From contig NC_079238.1 in assembly GCF_027921745.1 (NCBI RefSeq), positions 4,216,001 through 4,280,000 on the forward strand: a stretch of DNA of 64,000 nucleotides, in the 5' to 3' direction. The notes beneath the pieces were generated by a model. The model made no database searches, was not told the DNA's origin, and was given only the letters and a program-made list of their open reading frames with translations. Position numbers and translations under genes: made by a program. The stretch comes from Schizosaccharomyces osmophilus. Its lineage: Eukaryota. Shown here piece after piece: positions 27,747-61,116 of this stretch (the first letter of the stretch is position 1; every line of letters starts with the position of its first letter).

Positions 27747-27919
27747 TGTCACAGCAGAATACACCGTATAATATGACAATAAGTAAGTGAAATAGAATGG
27801 TAATTGCTTTTAGCGTTGAAAGAAGTACATTAAATAAGATACTAAATATCTGGATGGATGTACGCATATTGACAGTCTGGGATACATATGCGCGCCGAGT
27901 AAAACCATCAAATTTGACA
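27747..27919 (+). repeat. Possible LTR fragment (TGTCA...TGACA)
   Basis: Starts TGTCACAGCAGAATACACCGTATAATATG and ends TGACA. Weakly similar to minus-strand TGTTACAGC...ACGCTGTATTATCATATG at ~32024. No target-site duplication seen. Confidence 0.3.
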
Positions 27920-28009
27920 TTAGCTACAGTTTAAAGGATGTCGATAGGAATCGAAGCTGTTGTATGAAGTTTGTCGGTGGAAGGCGTCTATTGTATAGAC
28001 ATTCTACAT

Positions 28010-31000
28010 CTATATTTCCCTCAGTTTGAAACATTTGCTTGAAACACTGCCTGTAAGATTTATATAAAAGGGCTCCAATCCAGAGATACGAAAACTAGAA
28101 GGATAGTGACTTCGAGCATTTTTGGGAAATGTAGCATGTAATTGTGATCTCCAACTATTCTCGAGTCTAAAATTCGGCACATGTTGCATCCAATATATAT
28201 ATTTCTGATGGAATAATCCAACTTTTTCGTTATACCAATACTTGATCGCTGGGTTTGAAAGCATGAGATCTTTTTTGGATTATAGTATTCTGCGTAATTT
28301 TTATGTTAATATGGATCCGCTCATGCATCTCCCCAGCAGTATGAAGATGGTCTTGTTTTAGGTTAATACCTGTCACTCGATGCACTTGGATATCCCAATC
28401 GTTGGTTACTGCTGGTCGTCCATAAGCACTAGTGTAAGGCGCAATTTCTGAAACTGAATGATGTGCTGAATTGTAGCGCAACTGTGCTTTAGGAAGTTCA
28501 TATACCCACTTATTTGACAGTTCGTTTGTATAATAACAAAGATGATATAAGATTTATGCGATGATTCTTGGCAAAACGTCGCGTTTTCAAAAGGAAAAAC
28601 TACTATTCGTATGTACTTTACCGCGTTATTTCTCATACAGACTCCTCTTTATGGTGATCTTATGTTATAGCAATGTCTTCATCATTGCCATCGGGCTCTC
28701 CAAGGATAGCACAGTTATAATTTTTGCCTCTCTTGTTCTTACAAGTGTGTGCCCTTATACAAAGGCTCCTGGGCCTAGTGATGGAATTACAAGCGTCAGA
28801 ACAAATTCGTTGCAACAGTTCTTGTGTAATTTCCTTGCTCCAGTGTATTAATGATGTCGTCTCAAGTGATATTTCCTTCCTCAACTCCTCGTGCGTATAC
28901 TACATTGTCCATTAATTTGTATATTGTCATAGTAACTCAACCAAAGGTCAAGCAAATGATGGTAAATAAACTGTGCTGGGTATGATACTATGATGAAAAT
29001 AAGGCGTGTTCCACTTCTTTGATATTATCTGGATATCTATAATCACACCCATTCTAATAAAAGTTTTCTCTTGTTCGGTTTGTGGTAGAAACTTTTCCAC
29101 GATGTCCTTTTGAAGTTGGCTGGCCATGAAATTCCTTGCTAAGAACCTGAATTATTTGTGTACTTTTGGGACCAATATTTGCCCAAAGTCATGCATAATA
29201 GACCATTACTTATTGTATAATCGGTATTTCCGTTTGTTCTATTATGGATATCTTTTAATTCTTGGTTACAAAGATATTCCTTTCGTATATCGGCGAAAAT
29301 GTTCGTGATATAACCAGTTACTAGTGCATGGATAAAGTTTGAACTTTCAAATAATATCTTTGTGACAGAGCATCCGCTGGTTCGTCCTTGCGTCCTGTCG
29401 ATGTTGAGTTTCAAACTAATACGAGTCTAGTTAGGTAGCTCATCTGTGCAATCTCGCTCTGGCATCCATCATATCTTCGTGAACATGGATCAGTCAAAGT
29501 TTTAAGCGGTTCATCAGTGTCCGCTAGAATGTGATACCATTTGCGGAGAGTTGTTATAACGGCATACACTTCTTTCTCCTATGTTGGCTAAACCTTTAAA
29601 TGATCTGTAAATGAAGCGGAATGAAATGCAGTTGGGTGACGAATTCTATCATCTTGCTTTTGGGATAAGTTAGCTCCTATATCGTAATCTGAAGCACTGA
29701 CCAGTAAAGTTTCTCTCACAGGTTTATAAAGCCTAAGAATAGAAACATTTTCAAGCGTTAGCTTGATACAAAATTTTGTAGATGGCAATTTGTCCATTTA
29801 AAGATTGCATTTTTTTTCTCGAGCCATACAAAGCTCTGGTCATTTTGGATTAATCAGGCATGGATTGTCTAGAATAATTAACAAATCTTAAGAATGATCA
29901 CAATTTTCTTACAGTATTGGGTTGAGGCAAATCTTTGATTTCTTGAATACTTCCTTTGTCAACTTCCATGCCTTTATCGGAGAGTACGTGAACAAGAAAA
30001 TTCACCGTATCCTGAAAAAAAATAGACGCTTGTCTACATTGGCTTCTCTCAATTTCTGTGAGGCTTTTCGTACATGAGAATGATGGTCCATTATTGACGA
30101 TACAAAAATTTGAATGTCGTTTCAATAGATGATGACAGAAATGTCAATATAGGATGGAACACTCCATTAATATGTCTATGTCTTTGAAAGTTCGCTGGTG
30201 CATATGTGATTTCAAATGGCATTACTGTATATTCATATGATCCAAAAGGTGTTCTGAAAGTACTTTTATACTCGTCACTTTTTTTGATTCTGGGCAAATA
30301 ATACGCATCTTTTAAGTCTATTGTTGCGAAAACTATGACGCTGCTCAAGAAGTGAACGTCAACTTTCCTGTGATTTCTAACATATGTTCGATGATTCCTG
30401 CAAATGTTCGATCTTTTCTGTCAAAACGGTGTGTATTTCTTTTCACTACATGTTCTCACTATAGAGGCATCTGCTCCAGAATCTAGAAATACTTCAGTAT
30501 TGAATTTATCTACTTTAATTTCTGAAATTAAGAGCGACCTCCCTGCTGCGATATTGATGAAGTATCAGAGTTCCTTAACAGAAACAGTCCTTATTTCTTG
30601 TGTGGGATAACGGTCCGCTGATCATTCTGACTTCTTTAACTTTGCTCGGTTATCATCGTATTTCTCCATTCCTTCATTCTTTAAAGATTTTTCGTTGAAA
30701 CGTTTCGCTGATGGTGATCGTCGCCTATGGTTTTTCTCATGTTTTCGTGCATTATCATAACGAAAATTCTCCATTGTAATTTTAATTTCTACTTTAGAGT
30801 CTCCGTTTTCCGAATCGTTTCGAAGTTCTTTCTTTCTAATAGCGAAAGGTTGCATCAGGAAAGTAAGCATCTTTTCTAGTGTTCCCTATCTAACTTTTAG
30901 GCTAAGTTCCTTTATTCCTCAATATTTATTTCCAGTCTTGACGATTGATGCGCGAGTCTATTTACGTGTGCCAACCAGGAAGTGCATTGTTCATTGGAAT

Positions 31001-31701
31001 GAACTTGATCATAAACGTTGTGAATTGTTCTTATGAGGTTCCGGTTTCTTTACTAAATTACGTATCTTTTCTCTAGGATTTTGAGGAGATCTAGTATATA
31101 GATATTCTACGTTCTCGCTGTTATGGACAAACACTTTAGGCATCGTAGCGAACGCATTCTTGAATTCCTCGAGGAAATCTTCTCTCAATTGTTTTCCTGA
31201 GATATATTGATAAGGTTCGTCTTGATAAAACTTATCCAGATAAAATGAAGTGTTTTCTCCCTACGCTTTTATGGTCGTCGTAACAATGTTGATATTTTCT
31301 TCCGAAAGATAATCTTCATCAGTTCTCGTTTGAGCTGCAGGTGTTTTCCGTGTTTTTTCATTTTGCCCAGTCTTTGGTTCACCCAATTCACGGTGGATAG
31401 TTGAATAATGTCCGTTTCTAAAAGAATAAGAGTTTGATAAAGAGTGCCCTGGTGAACTAATTGAGAATGTTATTAAACATATATATGAGCTCTTCCAACA
31501 AGTATCATCCTAACTGAAGACTTTGCCTGGGAATAGCTGGTGCTTATATAGTAGTTATAAATTGGATACTAAAAGAACAGTATAACTAAAAATAAGAACT
31601 TTAACTTCTGTTATTACCATGAAAAGTCCAAAATTGAGTTGTACAAGGATATACTGGTTAGTGTCATAATCCATATACAATATTACTAACGTCTTGATAC
31701 A
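28010..31701 (-). mobile_element. Degenerate Ty3/Gypsy (Tf/sushi-like) LTR retrotransposon: 5' LTR remnant, gag, PR, RT, RNase H and IN fragments
   Basis: Protease FLDSGADA (LDSGA at 30472-30486). RT IDLKDAYY...FRTPFGSYEYTVMPF..APANFQ, with YxDD decayed to Y*ND (30116-30127). RNase H ASDYDIGANLSQK and EKEVYAVITTLRKWYHIL. Integrase YNSAHHS..PY...FKPSDQVLV. The order PR-RT-RH-IN is Ty3-type. Many stops and frameshifts. Confidence 0.92.
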
Positions 31702-32074
31702 CTTATCGGATTGTTGTAAAATAATACAGAAGAATACCTTTTTTACAATAAACAACGAAAGTTTTAACAAAGAAATCTACTTATCTACTTTTGAAGAAAC
31801 AATTTTACCTACTTTGGAAGATAAATATATCTCCAGTTGGAAGTAGGAATCTTCAGACTGGAAGATTCGACTGATCTGGCTTACCAAATTAAATTATCAT
31901 TTAGCTACTCAAGTCACTTCTAGAAGACATCAAGTAGAGTCCATTCCATACAATAAAACTAATTCAGCCCATAAACTCATACACTCAGCCATATGATAAT
32001 ACAGCGTAAAGCCCCAGCTGTAACAATTATCCTTTTAAACTGAATAGAGTAGTAGTATTATAATGTCTCTGACA
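31425..32074 (-). repeat. 5' LTR remnant of the element plus adjacent LTR-like fragments
   Basis: 31448-31552 (minus) aligns by eye with 33666-33768 (plus): ACTATATAAGCA.CAGCT...TTAGGA.GAT...TGGAAGAGCT...ATAACAT...ATTAGT...CACCAGG. The minus strand at 32074 begins TGTCAGAG, like the solo LTR. Confidence 0.6.
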
Positions 32075-32399
32075 GTAAACAAACTATGGAAGATGTGAAC
32101 TTTTGAGTTTAAATGACAAGTGACCGCCTTTGACTATTGAAACCTAGAGGCTTTCATTAGCTTGTTTATTATATTTTTGAAGTTATAATTTTGTTTTTTA
32201 GTGAGGTAACAAATTATTAAAACGACTAAAATCTACTAATTCTACGAATTTGGTTGCTTTTTACACTTAATATGTATAATCATGAACTGGCTTTGATAAT
32301 TCGTAGCCTTTTCGGTAATGACAAGTACTAAACAGTTTATCATGAAATGCATTCTTGCCTGCTTAAAGAAATCATTTCGTATGCAACTAAAGTTTGTAT

Positions 32400-33186
32400 T
32401 TAGAAATGGTTGAAATCAATGGTTTCAAAGATGCCGCTCGCTTTGTCGGCTTGTAGTTACCAACTAAATGTCATAGTAAACAAAATTGTATTCTTGACTA
32501 ATGCTGCTTGTAAGCTAGCGGGCAATACATTGACATACACATATTATGTACCACCAGAGTTTTTATGAAGTTTGCGACCCCATCAAGAGCTTTTTTTGTT
32601 CTTTACAAACAACTTATCATAATTTACTAGTAGCAGGTCAGTAATCTGATATATATTATATCCATCGCATCTTACCTAACAGAAATACTAACAAGAGTAC
32701 ATTCCAAACACCCAAAATTGTCCAAGAAACTGCCTTTTTTGGTGCTGTTTCTGTAAAATAACATAATATCAAACCAAGGATTAAGCTTATAGTAGAACCA
32801 AAAAACAAACTGTCAATCATTACTTCCCACCAAGGCATATGATTCTTAGCGATTTCTCTACCAGATTCTAAATCAACGTTGTAGGGCAAATCTAGTTGAT
32901 TAGTAATGAATAGCTTACTAGATGATTTCTTGGGTTTGGAAAATAATGAGAAAGTTGTGTGCTTTTTTTTTTTGAACATTTATCTTCCTTTCCCTATTCA
33001 ACATGTCTTACCTGAGTATGGAGGCGGCAAGCTATTTGGATGGCTTTGAGTATCTGGCCTTTCATGATACAACGCCTTGGGGAAGTCAACAGGACTATAA
33101 ACAGGAGCATTATTTTCTGGGGTTTCATTATTGAGTGTCTTGACGGAGACATCAGAACTCGAAACAGGAGCTATAGCGTCTGTCAT
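32400..33186 (-). pseudogene. wtf: wtf-like gene, truncated/frameshifted (exons 33186-33012, 32891-32676, 32626-32583 stop; remnants to ~32400)
   Basis: Splices to 144 aa: MTDAIAPVSSSDVSVKTLNNE...LPPPYS/DLPYNVDLESGR...two hydrophobic segments.../VNYDKLFVKNKKSS*. Exon 1 and the upstream sequence are homologous to the gene at 61956. Removing one A from the A7 run extends exon 3 to a GTATGT donor and a last-exon remnant (QSERH). Confidence 0.75.
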
Positions 33187-33495
33187 CTTAAAGTCCAAAA
33201 GATAGAAAATTCCAACTTCTAGTGCTGAGGAATTGAAAAGAACTACCAAGGAAAGAACGTCGTAATTGCTTCAACTTTTCGAGAATTGGCCTGGAAAAGA
33301 ATTGGCCCTATAGTCAATGACACAGACGAAATTTCCTAAAAAGTATTCGATAGAATTAAAAGCAAAACCCTCACATTTTTCTTATAAAGCAGCAGTATGT
33401 AGTATTTGTCAATGCCATGTCATGTCCGTCACAAATGTGTTTTGCTAGCATTACGACTTCTGTACCAAACCGTTGTATAAGAATATTGTTGTCGG

Positions 33496-33896
33496 TGTCA
33501 GAGGATTCTCTTATACTATAAATAATTGATAATGATTATACTAACAAGTATAATATCGTATTAATTGACTTAAACACAAACATACTAAAATCTTTCTGGA
33601 AGATCCAGAGTTTGCAAGCTGCTAATTTTTAGCTAGACTGCCCTTGTAATTGTCTATTTAGAGTCACTATATAAGCAACAGCTGGTCCAAACAAAATATC
33701 CAATTAGGAAGATTTTTGCTGGAAGAGCTAATACCGTTGCTGATAACATATTCATTAGTCTCACCAGGCAGTTTCTGTACACCCATTCATCCGTATATGT
33801 AGTAAATAATTTAAAACTACTTATTCTAACGTCAAAAGCATTTACCATTGTATTCCACTTGCTTTGTCATATTATACTAAGTATTTTCCCGTGACA
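33496..33896 (+). mobile_element. Solo LTR, 401 bp
   Basis: TGTCA...TGACA termini, internal TATATAAG, and similarity to the LTR remnant at 31448-31552 in the opposite orientation. Flanks TCGG/TCGA are at best an imperfect TSD. Confidence 0.75.
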
Positions 33897-34043
33897 TCGA
33901 GTTTACCATATAATAAAATCCTTTGCTGGCTTGCTATTTTTCACATACAAATGCACTTCTTGTTTTGAAAGACAGGGTTCTGATACTTACGGTTGGATCG
34001 CTCTTTTTTCGACGTTTCAGATGTGCTCAAAACCTTAAATAAA

Positions 34044-36985
34044 TTATCGAGGTAAGCTATGAATCAGATCTTCAGTAATCTCCTTTTGAATCCTTTCAGA
34101 TTCTGTCGTAAGGCTCGACTCAAGAGTCAGCTTTGTAGCTGCCAACTTGCGTATGTTTTCCTATAATGGTCAGTATCAACGTATCATACAAACATTCACT
34201 TACCTCAATGCTATTTTCCGTAACTAGGCGATAAACAGAAACAGGTCGTGTTTGCCCAACTCGATGGGCACGGTCTTCTGCCTGTAAATCATCAAAAGGA
34301 TTGAAAGAACAATCATACATGACGACAACGTTTGCACAAGTCAGATTGATTCCAAAACCCCCTGACTTTGTCGAAAGCAAAAACACTTTATACTCTGGGT
34401 TCTCGTAAAACTCATCGAGTAAACTTTGTCTCGTATCTACCGGAGTAGAGCCATCAAGTCTCAAAAACTTGATTCCAATGGTTTTCAGGACGAGCTCAAG
34501 TATATCTAATACTTGAGTGAATTGACTAAAAATCAAAATTCGATCCTCACTTTTAGATTCATGCAACAGTGAAACTAACTTGTTTACTTTTCCCGACTTC
34601 ATCCAAGGTTCTCCTTGCAGTTGAAACTGATGCAGAGACTTGAATTGCATACAGAGATGGTGAAGTTCAAAATCCGACATGACTTCCATATCTTCATATA
34701 TATAACTTTCATTGGCGTCTAAATATTGATCCTCTCGTAAAATCCTTTTTGACATCGTCCTCAAGGTTTCTAAAGAGTATATAGAACGGAACAACAGCTG
34801 GTGATTGACAACTTTTCGAAGTTGCATTATAATGTTTTCACGATTACTGGAAGAATCGTTTCTCATCTTAATTAATTTTACGTAGATATCCTTTTGACTA
34901 GGTTCCATATGACAATACTCTACGAGTTGTTTTTTCTCGGGAAGGTCAGACAAAACATCGGCCTTTTTGCGGCGAAGGATGAAGGGATTCATGATTGATT
35001 TTGCTCTAGAAATTCTTTGTTGAGAAAGATAAGCTCTTTCAAAATTTCCATCCGTAGAGGGCTTAATTTTGTAAATTATATCCAGTCCTTGCATATTACT
35101 ATCAAACATCTTGGGTAACATAAAGGCAAGTAAAGACTGCAGGTGTAAATGTTAGTAACCACTAAGAAGTAGAGAATGAAGCACATACAATTAGCTCTTT
35201 CAAGTTATTCTGTAACGGCGTTCCAGTAATTAAAAGGCGAAATTTGGCTGTAATATTCATCAAATGTTTATATCTTTCTGACATCCGATTTTTTAAGTAG
35301 TGACCTTCATCAAAAACACAAATCTATACGTTAGTATACATCTTAAGTAGGAACAGGATTCGTACATTAAACCTTTGTCTCCGTAAGAAAGCTCTGTCAT
35401 CTCTAGAACCCGAAGCCATATGATAGTTTGTTACCAAAACATCATATTCGTTGTCTGTCAAATAATATCTTTTCTCTATCCTCTCAGCTTGGCTTCCTGA
35501 GTATTCTTCTACTCGCAAAGATGGGCAAAATTTAGCAAACTCACGAAGCCAGTTCTCAAGGGTAGAGGCAGGAACCACGATTAAATGGGGACCTCTAATG
35601 TTGTTTTCCTTCACTGAAGCCAAAAATGCAATTACCTGACAGGTTTTACCAAGTCCCATTTCGTCTGCCAAAATACCCGACAAATCAGCATGATACATTA
35701 AACGTAACCAATTAACACCCATTATTTGGTAATTTTTCAGTGTTACTCCAGGTGCCAACAATCCGGGCTGCTCTTCCATGTAATCCATTGGTATGCATTC
35801 TTCGTGATTTTTATCTTGTTGAATGTTATGCCAGTTTTTTAATGTGTTTGCTATGAGGCGTCCGTAATTTTCACAGCGATTAATTAAGGAATCAACAGCG
35901 TCAAACCCTTGTAAAACTTCATACGTAGAATTCACAACCTTTTTGCCCACTTTAAAAGAGTCCGATTTTGATCGCTTTTGTTTGTCAGTAACTTTTTTCT
36001 TATGAACGACTTCGGCCTTATTTAAGCTTGGATATGGCCTCTTCGTAATGAAATATTCTACAATATCATGCGGGCAACTAGATACATCTATCAACTCCTG
36101 TAGGGAACAACTGTTTAAAAAATCAAGCACTCGCTTATCATAGTCAGATTCTTCATCGCTCACGTTTTGAACTTGATGTTTATCAAATTCTTCCACTGAG
36201 GCATCTTCGAAAGCTGGATTAGGTGTATTTTCCTTTTCGTACTCGGTATTCTTTAATGGAAACGTACTAGTTCTGTCTTCTTCATCTTCATCTTCCTCTT
36301 CCTCTTCCTCTTCCTCAGAAAGCTGAATAACACGCGAAGTCTTTTTTCGAGATTTAGTAGGTTCAACAGGTTCCCCATTTTGCAAGTCTCTTTTTCTTGG
36401 AATATGAGTTTTTGGTAACGCAGCTTTCTCTGGTTTATTGTTTTTTTCTTTCCGAGAATTTTTATTACCAACACGCCCACCTGGTTCTTTTAGTAGTCTC
36501 TGAAACGTAAGTTTATGAAGTACCATGTTTTCTTTCCAATTAAACTTTTTTAATTTATCGACTATATCATTTTCGTCCAGCTCAGGAAATCGACGTTTTA
36601 CAAAATTTATTTTTGATTCCATCGTTTCAGTGTTCATAGCATCATTCATTTCAGAATTATCCCTGTTATTTGATTTTGTCTTAGCCTCAATTCTTGAAAC
36701 AATTGACTCGTCGTTCTTTTCTTGAAGGATTCTGTTTATCTTTTTTTGACTGTTGGTATCTTCAGGTGCCACCGATTCCAAAGTTAAAGGGTTCAGCCTG
36801 TCTCGAAAATCTTTTCTTGAAGCCAAATGTAAACCACTTTGATCAATTTCACGCCCAGTGTTCCGTACGGGAGACTCTTCTATTGGGGAACTGTTTATGA
36901 AAATTTGATGATTCTCGCGTACTGGCGTACCAGGAGGAGATGGGCTTGGTACAGTAACTAAGTCTTTACTTTCTTTGTCCAACAT
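34044..36985 (-). CDS. fft1: SMARCAD1/Fun30-family SNF2 chromatin-remodelling ATPase, multi-exon
   Basis: [29 protein letters not shown] and [11 protein letters not shown] (in the small exon ~35190-35323), [21 protein letters not shown] and [11 protein letters not shown]. Last exon ends in TAA at 34044. Paralog name rests on recalled synteny. Confidence 0.88.
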
Positions 36986-42738: not shown

Positions 42739-42810
42739 GGGGTTATAGCTCAGTGGTAGAGTGAGGGATTGCAATTCCCCAGGTCACTGGTTCAAATCCG
42801 GTTGGCCCCT
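42739..42810 (+). tRNA. tRNA-Cys (GCA)
   Basis: Cloverleaf with acceptor GGGGTTA/TGGCCCC, D-arm GCTCAGTGGTAGAGT, anticodon loop TTGCAAT and T-loop TTCAAAT. T7 terminator follows. Confidence 0.93.
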
Positions 42811-43187: not shown

Positions 43188-43259
43188 TCCGTTGTGGTCC
43201 AACGGCTAGGATTCGTCGCTTTCACCGACGCGGCCGGGGTTCGACTCCCCGCAACGGAA
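43188..43259 (+). tRNA. tRNA-Glu (TTC)
   Basis: Acceptor TCCGTTG/CAACGGA, anticodon arm CGTCG-CTTTCAC-CGACG and T-arm GGGGTTCGACTCCCC. T-run follows. Confidence 0.95.
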
Positions 43260-60994: not shown

Positions 60995-61116
60995 CATTAC
61001 GGCCATACCTAGGCGAAATTACCAGTTCCCGTCCGATCACTGCAGTCGTGCGTTTGAGGAGGGCCTCGTTTGTACTATGGTTGGAGACAACATGGGAATC
61101 CGGGGTGCTGTAGGCT
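60995..61116 (+). rRNA. Dispersed 5S rDNA copy, diverged (possibly a pseudogene)
   Basis: TACGGCCATACCTAGGCGAAA..ACCAGTTCCCGTCCGATCACTGCAGT...GGGCCTCGTT.GTACTATGGTTGGAGACAACATGGGAATCCGGGGTGCTGTAGGCT matches fission-yeast 5S rRNA as recalled, with several changes and a ~3-nt insertion. Confidence 0.9.

What the first reader, a model, noticed from the sequence alone, without database searches (positions are those of the whole stretch)
32400..33186. Second, damaged wtf-like paralog: possible antidote-only suppressor or pseudogene
Seen: it shares 17 identical nt (GCTCCTGTTTCGAGTTC), APVSSS..S.KTLN.E, the PPPYS|D junction at the same phase-1 intron and a DLE motif with the 61956 gene. Its 120-nt intron 1 has no GTAAACA. 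As written it stops at 144 aa in exon 3. Removing one A from the A7 run (T7 at 32591-32597 on the + strand) gives KKALDGVANFIKLWWYIIC up to a GTATGT donor (32538), then a last-exon remnant (QSERH...ETID..QPF) that resembles QDERH...EEIELQPL. Inference: a decaying family member that kept the antidote exon but lost the poison promoter.
Basis: partly seen in the sequence, partly recalled or inferred. Interest (0 to 1): 0.72.

Follow-up and report, generated by a model that had tools for sequence, protein, structure and literature searches.

The report
Kept half of a spore-killer gene
This is a spliced, half-length offshoot of the fission-yeast wtf spore-killer genes that two species have kept at the same spot, cut at the same place, since a split dated to about 16 million years ago; it is likely a working gene and not a dying copy, and is predicted to have kept the antidote's ubiquitin-sorting tail for a job that is not yet tested.

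Summary
The wtf homology is real; the 'decaying copy or assembly error' reading is not supported. The gene is S. osmophilus SOMG_01931 (144 aa, three exons). A spliced contig joins both introns exactly, carries the A7 run unchanged and reads straight through the proposed GTATGT donor. A syntenic one-to-one ortholog exists in S. octosporus, SOCG_02304 (166 aa; 88 of 144 aligned residues identical; same 216-nt exon 2; same C-terminal frame), published as 'wtf18, pseudogene, lineage-specific'. Both keep the PPPY motif and two predicted membrane helices, both lack the poison start Met, and both have the first 21 residues of Wtf repeated in tandem (2 and 3 units). Neutral simulations rarely keep such a frame (72 of 20,000) or such conservative changes (13 of 4,000). 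It fails several defining features of intact wtf drivers and suppressors, so I file it as a wtf-derived gene, closest in behaviour to S. pombe class 3 wtf genes. Most likely a host-retained antidote module that recruits Pub1/Pub3 and sorts membrane cargo (inferred, untested); a broad drive suppressor is the main rival. No dN/dS, protein or functional data could be had.

The parts
33187..33466 (-). Transcribed leader; its last ~155 nt are homologous to the region upstream of the 61956 wtf gene
   Evidence: Spliced contig of X3 begins at 33466 (a contig end is not a mapped start). 33340-33123 aligns to 61795-62019 at 63.6% over 231 columns, E 4.7e-15.
33012..33186 (-). Exon 1 coding part (175 nt, residues 1-58): antidote-type N-terminal tail
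   Evidence: Joint 33012/32891 in X3; spliced model equals P0001 = SOMG_01931.
33061..33186 (-). Two tandem 63-nt (21-aa) copies of the Wtf N-terminus (33186-33124, 33123-33061); three copies in the S. octosporus ortholog
   Evidence: 41 of 63 nt alike between units; unit 2 matches the 61956 gene at 37 of 63 nt (best of 10,000 shuffles 31); extra units reach their score against 8 wtf N-termini in 12, 38 and 1 of 10,000 shuffles; best self-offset 21 in both proteins.
33016..33027 (-). PPPY (PY) motif, residues 54-57, kept in both species
   Evidence: 15 of 18 residues identical between orthologs in 41-58.
32892..33011 (-). Intron 1 (120 nt, GTAAGA..TAG, phase 1); no FLEX motif; holds an ATG (32979) in frame with exon 2
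32676..32891 (-). Exon 2 (216 nt): DLE without the following poison-start Met; Met77; two predicted membrane helices (about 87-105 and 113-131)
   Evidence: Joints in X3; DLESG in both orthologs against [DN]LEMA in 16 of 18 other wtf proteins fetched; hydropathy; AlphaFold2 helices 78-104 and 110-141 at mean pLDDT 57, low confidence.
32627..32675 (-). Intron 2 (49 nt, GTAAGA..TAG, phase 1)
   Evidence: Joint 32676/32626 in X3.
32583..32626 (-). Exon 3 coding part ending ...KNKKSS-stop; includes the A7 run (32591-32597)
   Evidence: ortholog ends in the same frame...KNRKSSN.
32400..32582 (-). 3' untranslated region with faint, broken traces of the ancestral exon 3 start (to ~32525) and last exon (~32445-32410)
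   Evidence: Contig covers to 32432 unspliced. Family profile: exon-3 start 34 of 4,000 shuffles, last exon 252 of 4,000, sum 26 of 4,000; middle segment 93 of 400.
33496..33896 (+). LTR-like element (401 bp, TGTCA..TGACA, no clean target-site duplication) 30 bp beyond the contig's 5' end; context, not shown to act on the gene
27747..31720 (-). Decayed Ty3/Gypsy-like retrotransposon between the gene and erg2; context. Upper end approximate
   Evidence: RVT_1 hit E 1.2e-4, below cut-off; 53-76 stops per frame, both ends match the LTR-like element.
61956..63026 (+). Comparison gene: intact 5-exon wtf (SOMG_01944, wtf15), 245 aa, next to a 5S rRNA gene
   Evidence: Model equals P0006; named in PMC10085805 Table S4; 5S rRNA at 60995-61116.

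Best explanation
The gene is a spliced, three-exon, half-length derivative of a wtf driver, shared by S. osmophilus and S. octosporus at the fft1-erg2 locus and likely kept by purifying selection, whose 144-aa product is predicted to work as a stand-alone antidote module: its PPPY tail would bind the Rsp5/NEDD4 ligases Pub1/Pub3, be ubiquitinated, and carry itself and a membrane partner from the late Golgi to the endosome and vacuole. Shown: structure, splicing, orthology, shared truncation, PY motif, loss of the poison Met, repeat-expanded tail. Inferred: one ancestral event (frameshift near the A run plus loss of most of the 3' half) before the species split; selection on the remaining frame; two membrane helices with both ends in the cytosol; Pub1/Pub3 binding, by analogy with tested antidotes. 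Inferred and weakest: that the partner is a host membrane protein, or the protein itself, and not one particular Wtf poison.
For: Spliced contig with both GT-AG introns removed and no difference from the DNA. One ortholog only, P0002, among 25 candidates of similar length; orthogroup 1:0:1:0:0; order fft1-gene-erg2, same strand, in both species; exons 175/216/44 nt here (last with stop) and 238/216/44+3 there, so exon 1 differs by one 63-nt unit, while introns differ by 59 and 3 nt. The pair forms a 100/100 clade on a long branch among 11 rows, whereas no syntenic wtf pair of these species groups together in PMC9562144. Neutral simulation tuned to the observed identity: changes as conservative as seen in 13 of 4,000 runs, that plus no stop in 1 of 4,000 (kappa 2, d 0.2); start, four splice dinucleotides and open frame kept in 72 of 20,000 without indels, 8 of 20,000 with few. 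0 of 13 changes in the helices are to a charged residue (342 of 4,000 under neutrality). The PY block is the best-kept segment, 15 of 18. PY-dependent Pub1/Pub3 binding and sorting are shown for Wtf antidotes, with a single PY motif in this clade (PMC10721834).
Against: Identity is 61% (88 of 144; core 79 of 123) against a genome mean of 90.5% and 92% and 85% for the neighbours, so constraint is weak or relaxed. The selection test is a simulation with an assumed mutation model from one species' DNA, not a dN/dS; on the whole protein the conservative-change test was weaker (1-3% at d 0.2-0.25), and the core was chosen after the repeat was seen. Transcription rests on one contig of one run, labelled DNA in the record. 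No protein, localisation or partner evidence. S. pombe class 3 wtf genes, the nearest analogy, have no deletion phenotype (PMC7032740).
Confidence: 0.5

Rival explanations
1. A drive suppressor: the short protein co-assembles with some Wtf poisons through its two helices and takes them to the vacuole, perhaps with broad specificity.
For: It keeps exactly the antidote parts and has lost the poison Met; both genomes hold many drivers (31 and 48 intact genes); fast change fits conflict; the antidote-specific tail alone neutralises a toxin it is tethered to (PMC10721834). This is compatible with all the conservation evidence.
Against: Local identity to 11 wtf proteins is only 26-43%. Known suppressors are nearly identical to the poison, above all at the C-terminus, which is missing here (PMC7032740); a tethered mismatched antidote does not rescue (PMC11892871). 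One fixed ortholog pair would have to track poisons that turn over by gene conversion.
Confidence: 0.22
2. A slowly decaying, still transcribed pseudogene whose frame survived in both species by chance or was released from selection only recently.
For: Published as a pseudogene in S. octosporus; low identity; the 3' half is decayed; with 46 catalogued pseudogenes in the two species a rare survivor is conceivable; transposon debris on both sides.
Against: Neutral survival 72 of 20,000 at best, under 0.2 expected among 46 loci; conservative changes; exon length changes all multiples of 3; clean splicing.
Confidence: 0.15
3. A minimal two-isoform driver: a short transcript from intron 1 starts at Met77 (or the intron ATG at 32979) and gives a PY-less two-helix poison.
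For: Met77 is kept in both species; an in-frame intron ATG exists; 14 S. octosporus genes make short transcripts without a confident FLEX hit.
Against: Canonical poison Met absent; FLEX best match 4 of 11 off; functional Wtf proteins have 4-8 predicted helices and single-helix deletions abolish Wtf4 toxicity (PMC11892871); a driver fixed in two species gains nothing.
Confidence: 0.07
4. An intact 5-exon wtf gene disguised by homopolymer errors in the assembly.
For: The break sits in an A7 run.
Against: No indel in three contig sets including a spliced one; ortholog stops in the same frame; only about 180 nt lie between the stop and the last-exon trace, too little for exons 3-5.
Confidence: 0.01

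Closest known systems
S. octosporus wtf18 = SOCG_02304 (PMC9562144, Supplementary file 1b, 1o, 1q; PMC10085805, Table S10)
   Same: Its direct ortholog: same locus, strand, exon plan, PY motif, missing poison Met, C-terminal frame. wtf18 coordinates 1304545-1305276 equal the SOCG_02304 coding span.
   Different: Published as a pseudogene and as lineage-specific with 'None found' in S. osmophilus; the other paper pairs the two genes as 'hypothetical protein' without the wtf label. The ortholog has three N-terminal units, not two, and longer introns.
Intact 5-exon wtf drivers of S. osmophilus/S. octosporus (such as wtf15 at 61956)
   Same: Upstream region, N-terminus, PPPY, DLE, phase-1 introns 1 and 2, first two helices (profile-profile probability 97.9, E 4.9e-13).
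   Different: Three exons, two helices, no poison Met, no exon-4 repeat, no 5S rDNA beside it, repeat-expanded tail, no sign of homogenisation with paralogs.
Antidote-only wtf suppressors (S. pombe class 2; S. osmophilus wtf16, S. cryophilus wtf2)
   Same: Antidote exon with PY motif; no start codon at the poison site.
   Different: Those are full length and, where tested, nearly identical to the poison they block; this one is half length and 26-43% identical to the 11 wtf proteins compared.
S. pombe class 3 (non-typical) wtf7, wtf11, wtf14, wtf15
   Same: Single copy, long branch, clear orthologs, no gene conversion seen, no expected drive.
   Different: Class 3 genes lack the PY motifs and are compared only within one species; this gene keeps PY, is truncated and is shared across species. 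PMC9562144 found no class-3-like gene outside S. pombe. Not shown to be orthologous to any of them.
Small PY-motif membrane adaptors or cargo of Rsp5/NEDD4 (Sna3, Bsd2, Ear1, NDFIP; recalled, no call)
   Same: Layout: disordered PY-bearing tail on a few membrane helices.
   Different: No sequence link: no Pfam family above cut-off and no solved-structure match. A works-like comparison only.

Membership tests
wtf gene family (descent) | Amino-acid homology to Wtf proteins | tested here: met
   25.5 and 33.5 bits against a profile of 11 wtf proteins, best shuffle 6.4; hhalign 97.9. Pfam WTF does not hit the query and hits only 1 of 3 intact relatives, below cut-off.
wtf gene family (descent) | Conserved intron positions and phase for introns 1 and 2 | tested here: met
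   Both phase 1, after PPPYS and after helix 2, as in the 61956 gene.
Intact wtf driver | Five (or six) exons | tested here: not met
   Three exons in the spliced contig and in the ortholog's annotation.
Intact wtf driver | [quoted passage not shown] | tested here: not met
   DLESG in both orthologs, [DN]LEMA in 16 of 18 others. A later Met77 is conserved; its use is unknown.
Intact wtf driver | FLEX (Mei4) motif in intron 1 | tested here: not met
   Best match 4 mismatches of 11, against 2 for the 61956 gene. Not universal in this species.
Intact wtf driver | Four to eight predicted membrane helices | tested here: not met
   Two in both orthologs, four in P0006 by the same scan; range from PMC11892871.
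Intact wtf driver | 5S rDNA or wag neighbour (usual in this clade) | tested here: not met
   Only 5S gene in the window is at 60995-61116; 'NO' for wtf18. An LTR-like element lies upstream instead.
Intact wtf driver | Short transcript, toxic poison, biased transmission | not testable with these tools
   Only contigs were served; no functional data.
Antidote-only wtf suppressor (class 2) | Antidote exon 1 with PY motif and lysines in the tail | tested here: met
   PPPY 54-57; Lys16, 37, 74.
Antidote-only wtf suppressor (class 2) | High identity to a poison, above all at the C-terminus | tested here: not met
   26-43% to 11 wtf proteins, a part of the roughly 80 intact genes of the two species; C-terminal half absent.
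Antidote-only wtf suppressor (class 2) | Rescues spores or cells from a poison | not testable with these tools
   Needs co-expression or crosses.
Class 3 (non-typical) wtf | Syntenic alleles form their own long-branch clade, no ectopic conversion | tested here: met
   100/100 clade, branch 1.72, among 11 rows; extra repeat units removed and relatives cut to 135 residues before the tree; midpoint root.
Class 3 (non-typical) wtf | Absence of PY motifs; orthology to S. pombe wtf7/11/14/15 | tested here: not met
   PY present; orthogroup has no S. pombe member. Sequences of the class 3 genes were not compared.
Pseudogene | Neutral decay of the reading frame | tested here: not met
   for the coding part; met only for the stretch behind the stop.
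Rsp5/NEDD4 membrane adaptors (recalled) | Binds the ligase and brings it to other membrane proteins | not testable with these tools
   Layout fits; no homology.

The most novel reading that the evidence does not exclude
A domesticated meiotic driver: before S. osmophilus and S. octosporus split, a wtf spore killer lost its poison start and its C-terminal half, lengthened its antidote tail by 21-residue repeats, left the gene-conversion pool and became a host gene, either a Pub1/Pub3 sorting adaptor or a broad guard against Wtf poisons. It would be the first wtf gene with a true cross-species ortholog, hidden in the catalogues as a pseudogene in one species and a hypothetical protein in the other.
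Probability: 0.5. Interest if true: 0.75.

Novelty: new variant of a known kind. Interest (0 to 1): 0.55.

Why it matters
Killer drivers are expected to decay to antidote-only genes and then to pseudogenes (as summarised in PMC11497594). This locus points to another exit: truncation followed by long retention. It corrects two catalogue entries (wtf18 is neither lineage-specific nor clearly dead; S. osmophilus has one more wtf-derived gene), gives a natural minimal antidote (tail plus two helices) to test which part of a Wtf protein is needed for toxicity and for rescue, and offers the one wtf ortholog pair in which selection can be measured without gene conversion. It also suggests that other short 'wtf pseudogenes' deserve a check for conserved frames.

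Tried and rejected
Assembly error: rejected. Single-frame and nucleotide comparisons of the stretch behind the stop with wtf exons 3-4 found nothing (169 and 188 of 200 shuffles; nucleotide 344 of 500; best 0.9 bits); only the family profile gave a faint signal. Pfam gave sub-threshold membrane look-alikes only; ESM Atlas best feature hit 0.78, no named family; PDB sequences 0 hits. The AlphaFold2 model (pLDDT 57, pTM 0.25) was too weak for a fold search, so none was run. No complex prediction with a Wtf poison was obtained. No RNA holder was listed by the run search; no X3 contig covers intron 1, which is no evidence on a short isoform. X4 (another sample) covers 32602-32806 with one difference in intron 2 and stops short of the A7 run. 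Laying X3-X5 on the 61956 gene gave mostly paralog pieces and did not cleanly confirm all its joints. The large profile search (query: 2 orthologs plus 2 wtf proteins) returned 15 proteins: the query's cluster and 14 others; 10 of these were looked up by name (all Schizosaccharomyces wtf or uncharacterised S. octosporus proteins), and no third ortholog appeared. Earlier scan findings: none. My note calls the conserved Met 'Met78'; it is Met77.

Full report
What is in the sequence. On the minus strand a gene starts at 33186 and has exons of 175, 216 and 44 coding bases (the last with its stop) and introns of 120 and 49 bases, both GTAAGA..TAG and phase 1. The spliced product is letter for letter P0001, which its source names SOMG_01931 of Schizosaccharomyces osmophilus, a 144-aa hypothetical protein. 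The comparison gene at 61956 is an intact five-exon wtf, equal to P0006 and named wtf15 in PMC10085805 Table S4.

Homology. The protein's score against each of 4 wtf proteins was reached by 0 of 1,000 shuffles, and exon 2 after DLE matched on its own (2 and 0 of 1,000). A profile of 11 wtf proteins without the query gave 25.5 bits (ortholog 33.5) against a best of 6.4 among 1,000 shuffles. The 155 bases upstream of the start also align with the upstream region of wtf15. Descent from a wtf gene is settled.

Error or real. Contigs of X1 and X2 cover 31400-34100 in one piece with 0 differences and 0 gaps. One 866-base contig of X3 skips exactly the two introns and runs from 33466 to 32432 with 0 differences. 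X3 is labelled DNA in the record; I take it as RNA-derived because of these two joints. So the A7 run is real and the gene is spliced. The three runs are one sample that may be the window's source, and contigs drop rare forms, so this shows presence of this transcript, not absence of others. The contig passes the proposed donor at 32538 unspliced. Behind the stop, only faint traces remain: start of exon 3 in 34 of 4,000 shuffles, last exon in 252 of 4,000, both in 26 of 4,000; direct tests against wtf15 exons 3 and 4 were blank. The traces lie about 80 bases apart, so most of the ancestral 3' half is gone (inference).

The ortholog. A search with P0001 found one other protein among 25 candidates: P0002, S. 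octosporus SOCG_02304, 166 aa. 88 of 144 aligned residues are identical and both end in the same frame. PMC10085805 Table S10 puts the two alone in one orthogroup, 1:0:1:0:0, as hypothetical proteins. Both lie between fft1 and erg2 on the same strand. The S. octosporus coding span, 1304545-1305276, is what PMC9562144 lists as wtf18: pseudogene, no 5S rDNA, no FLEX, lineage-specific, 'None found' in S. osmophilus. The gene is not among the 42 S. osmophilus entries of that paper: the contig that holds the 61956 gene has no entry at the expected distance, and three motifs of the query are absent from its alignment of 113 intact proteins. That paper's own ortholog table does pair SOCG_02304 with g2076 of a second S. 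osmophilus strain (51.9% over 158); I did not see that sequence. In S. cryophilus and S. pombe, erg2 and fft1 have consecutive ids and midpoints 2.3 and 2.8 kb apart, which suggests an insertion in the ancestor of the two species; their DNA was not examined. The split is dated at 15.7 million years.

Shared derived features. Both read DLESG where 16 of 18 other fetched wtf proteins read [DN]LEMA, so the poison start is gone. Both keep PPPY and two hydrophobic helices, against four in wtf15. Exon 1 carries tandem copies of the first 21 Wtf residues, two here and three in S. octosporus; the 63-base difference in exon 1 is one unit. The pair forms a 100/100 clade on a long branch among 11 rows, while PMC9562144 reports that no syntenic genes of these species group together.

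Selection. On the 123-residue core, changes as conservative as observed arose in 13 of 4,000 runs (28 of 4,000 with a higher transition bias), and together with an open frame in 1 of 4,000. Start codon, splice dinucleotides and frame survived in 72 of 20,000 runs without indels and in 8, 7 and 0 of 20,000 with rising indel rates. On the whole protein the conservative-change test alone was weaker, 1-3%. At larger distances the identity itself excludes neutrality. Against this, 61% identity is far below the 90.5% genome mean: constraint is real but loose, or conflict drives change.

Mechanism. In tested Wtf antidotes the tail binds Pub1/Pub3 through PY motifs, and ubiquitination sends the protein and any bound toxin from the late Golgi to the endosome; this clade has one PY motif (PMC10721834). 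The best-kept block here is the one around PY, 15 of 18. I therefore predict a ubiquitin-sorted two-helix membrane protein. Its partner is the open point. Known antidotes rescue only close poisons, and a mismatched antidote fails even when tethered; this protein is 26-43% identical to the 11 wtf proteins compared and lacks the C-terminal half, so a host role is somewhat more likely than suppression. Selection only to stay harmless would keep PY but not the whole frame, so it does not explain the data alone (inference).

Standing against what is known. It descends from wtf but fails the exon count, poison start, helix count and near-identity tests for drivers and suppressors. It behaves most like S. 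pombe class 3 genes, but keeps PY and crosses a species boundary. Not in print as far as searched: SOMG_01931 and SOCG_02304 occur in 0 main texts, wtf18 does not occur in the main text of PMC9562144, and three further searches listed no paper on this locus by title or abstract start. Subscription papers are not covered.

What I saw of each paper. PMC9562144: abstract, Results parts 1-4 of 6, sections 28 and 58 (part 1), passages; supplement 11 part 1 of 5 and a search, supplement 42 part 2 and searches, supplement 4 searched; 30 of 44 files were not searched, and files 3 and 4 are cut. PMC10085805: abstract, passages, section 25; the supplement is cut, and I did not see Tables S18 (transposons) and S20 (wtf list), which could list this locus, though its Table S4 row carries no wtf name while wtf15's does. 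PMC10721834: abstract, sections 7, 12, 13. PMC11892871: abstract and passages. PMC11497594, PMC7032740, PMC6526906 and 10.64898/2026.01.24.701316: passages only; the last one's orthogroup tables, not seen, may hold an S. lindneri ortholog. Sna3, Bsd2, Ear1 and NDFIP are recalled.

Verdict. A real, spliced, conserved half-wtf gene, not an error and probably not a dying copy (about 0.8 that it is under selection). New variant of a known kind; interest 0.55.

Noticed in passing
window 27747-~31720 (-): Decayed Ty3/Gypsy-like retrotransposon between the gene and erg2. The stop-to-erg2 distance is about 5.1 kb here and 960 bp in S. octosporus, so it was gained in this lineage or lost in the other.
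   Followed up: partly
window 33496-33896 (+): LTR-like element of 401 bp, inverted relative to the decayed retrotransposon, 30 bp beyond the 5' end of the spliced contig; no clean target-site duplication. Any effect on the gene's promoter is untested.
   Followed up: partly
window 31657-32026: Short repeat matched by many other contigs at 80-90%; possibly a further LTR fragment.
   Followed up: no
window 32979 and 32838 (-): An intron-1 ATG in frame with exon 2, and Met77, kept in both species, could start short isoforms.
   Followed up: partly
window 60995-61116 (+): 5S rRNA gene (69 bits) 840 bp upstream of wtf15, the usual wtf context.
   Followed up: no
window 62062-62573, run X3: A paralog contig joins exon 1 to exon 3, skipping exon 2; P0018 (176 aa) has this layout. 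Other short wtf products annotated as proteins (P0013, 91 aa; P0018) may merit the same conservation check.
   Followed up: no
window 42739-42810 and 43188-43259 (+): Two tRNA genes 450 bp apart.
   Followed up: no
window 32656: One base differs in intron 2 in run X4, another sample.
   Followed up: no
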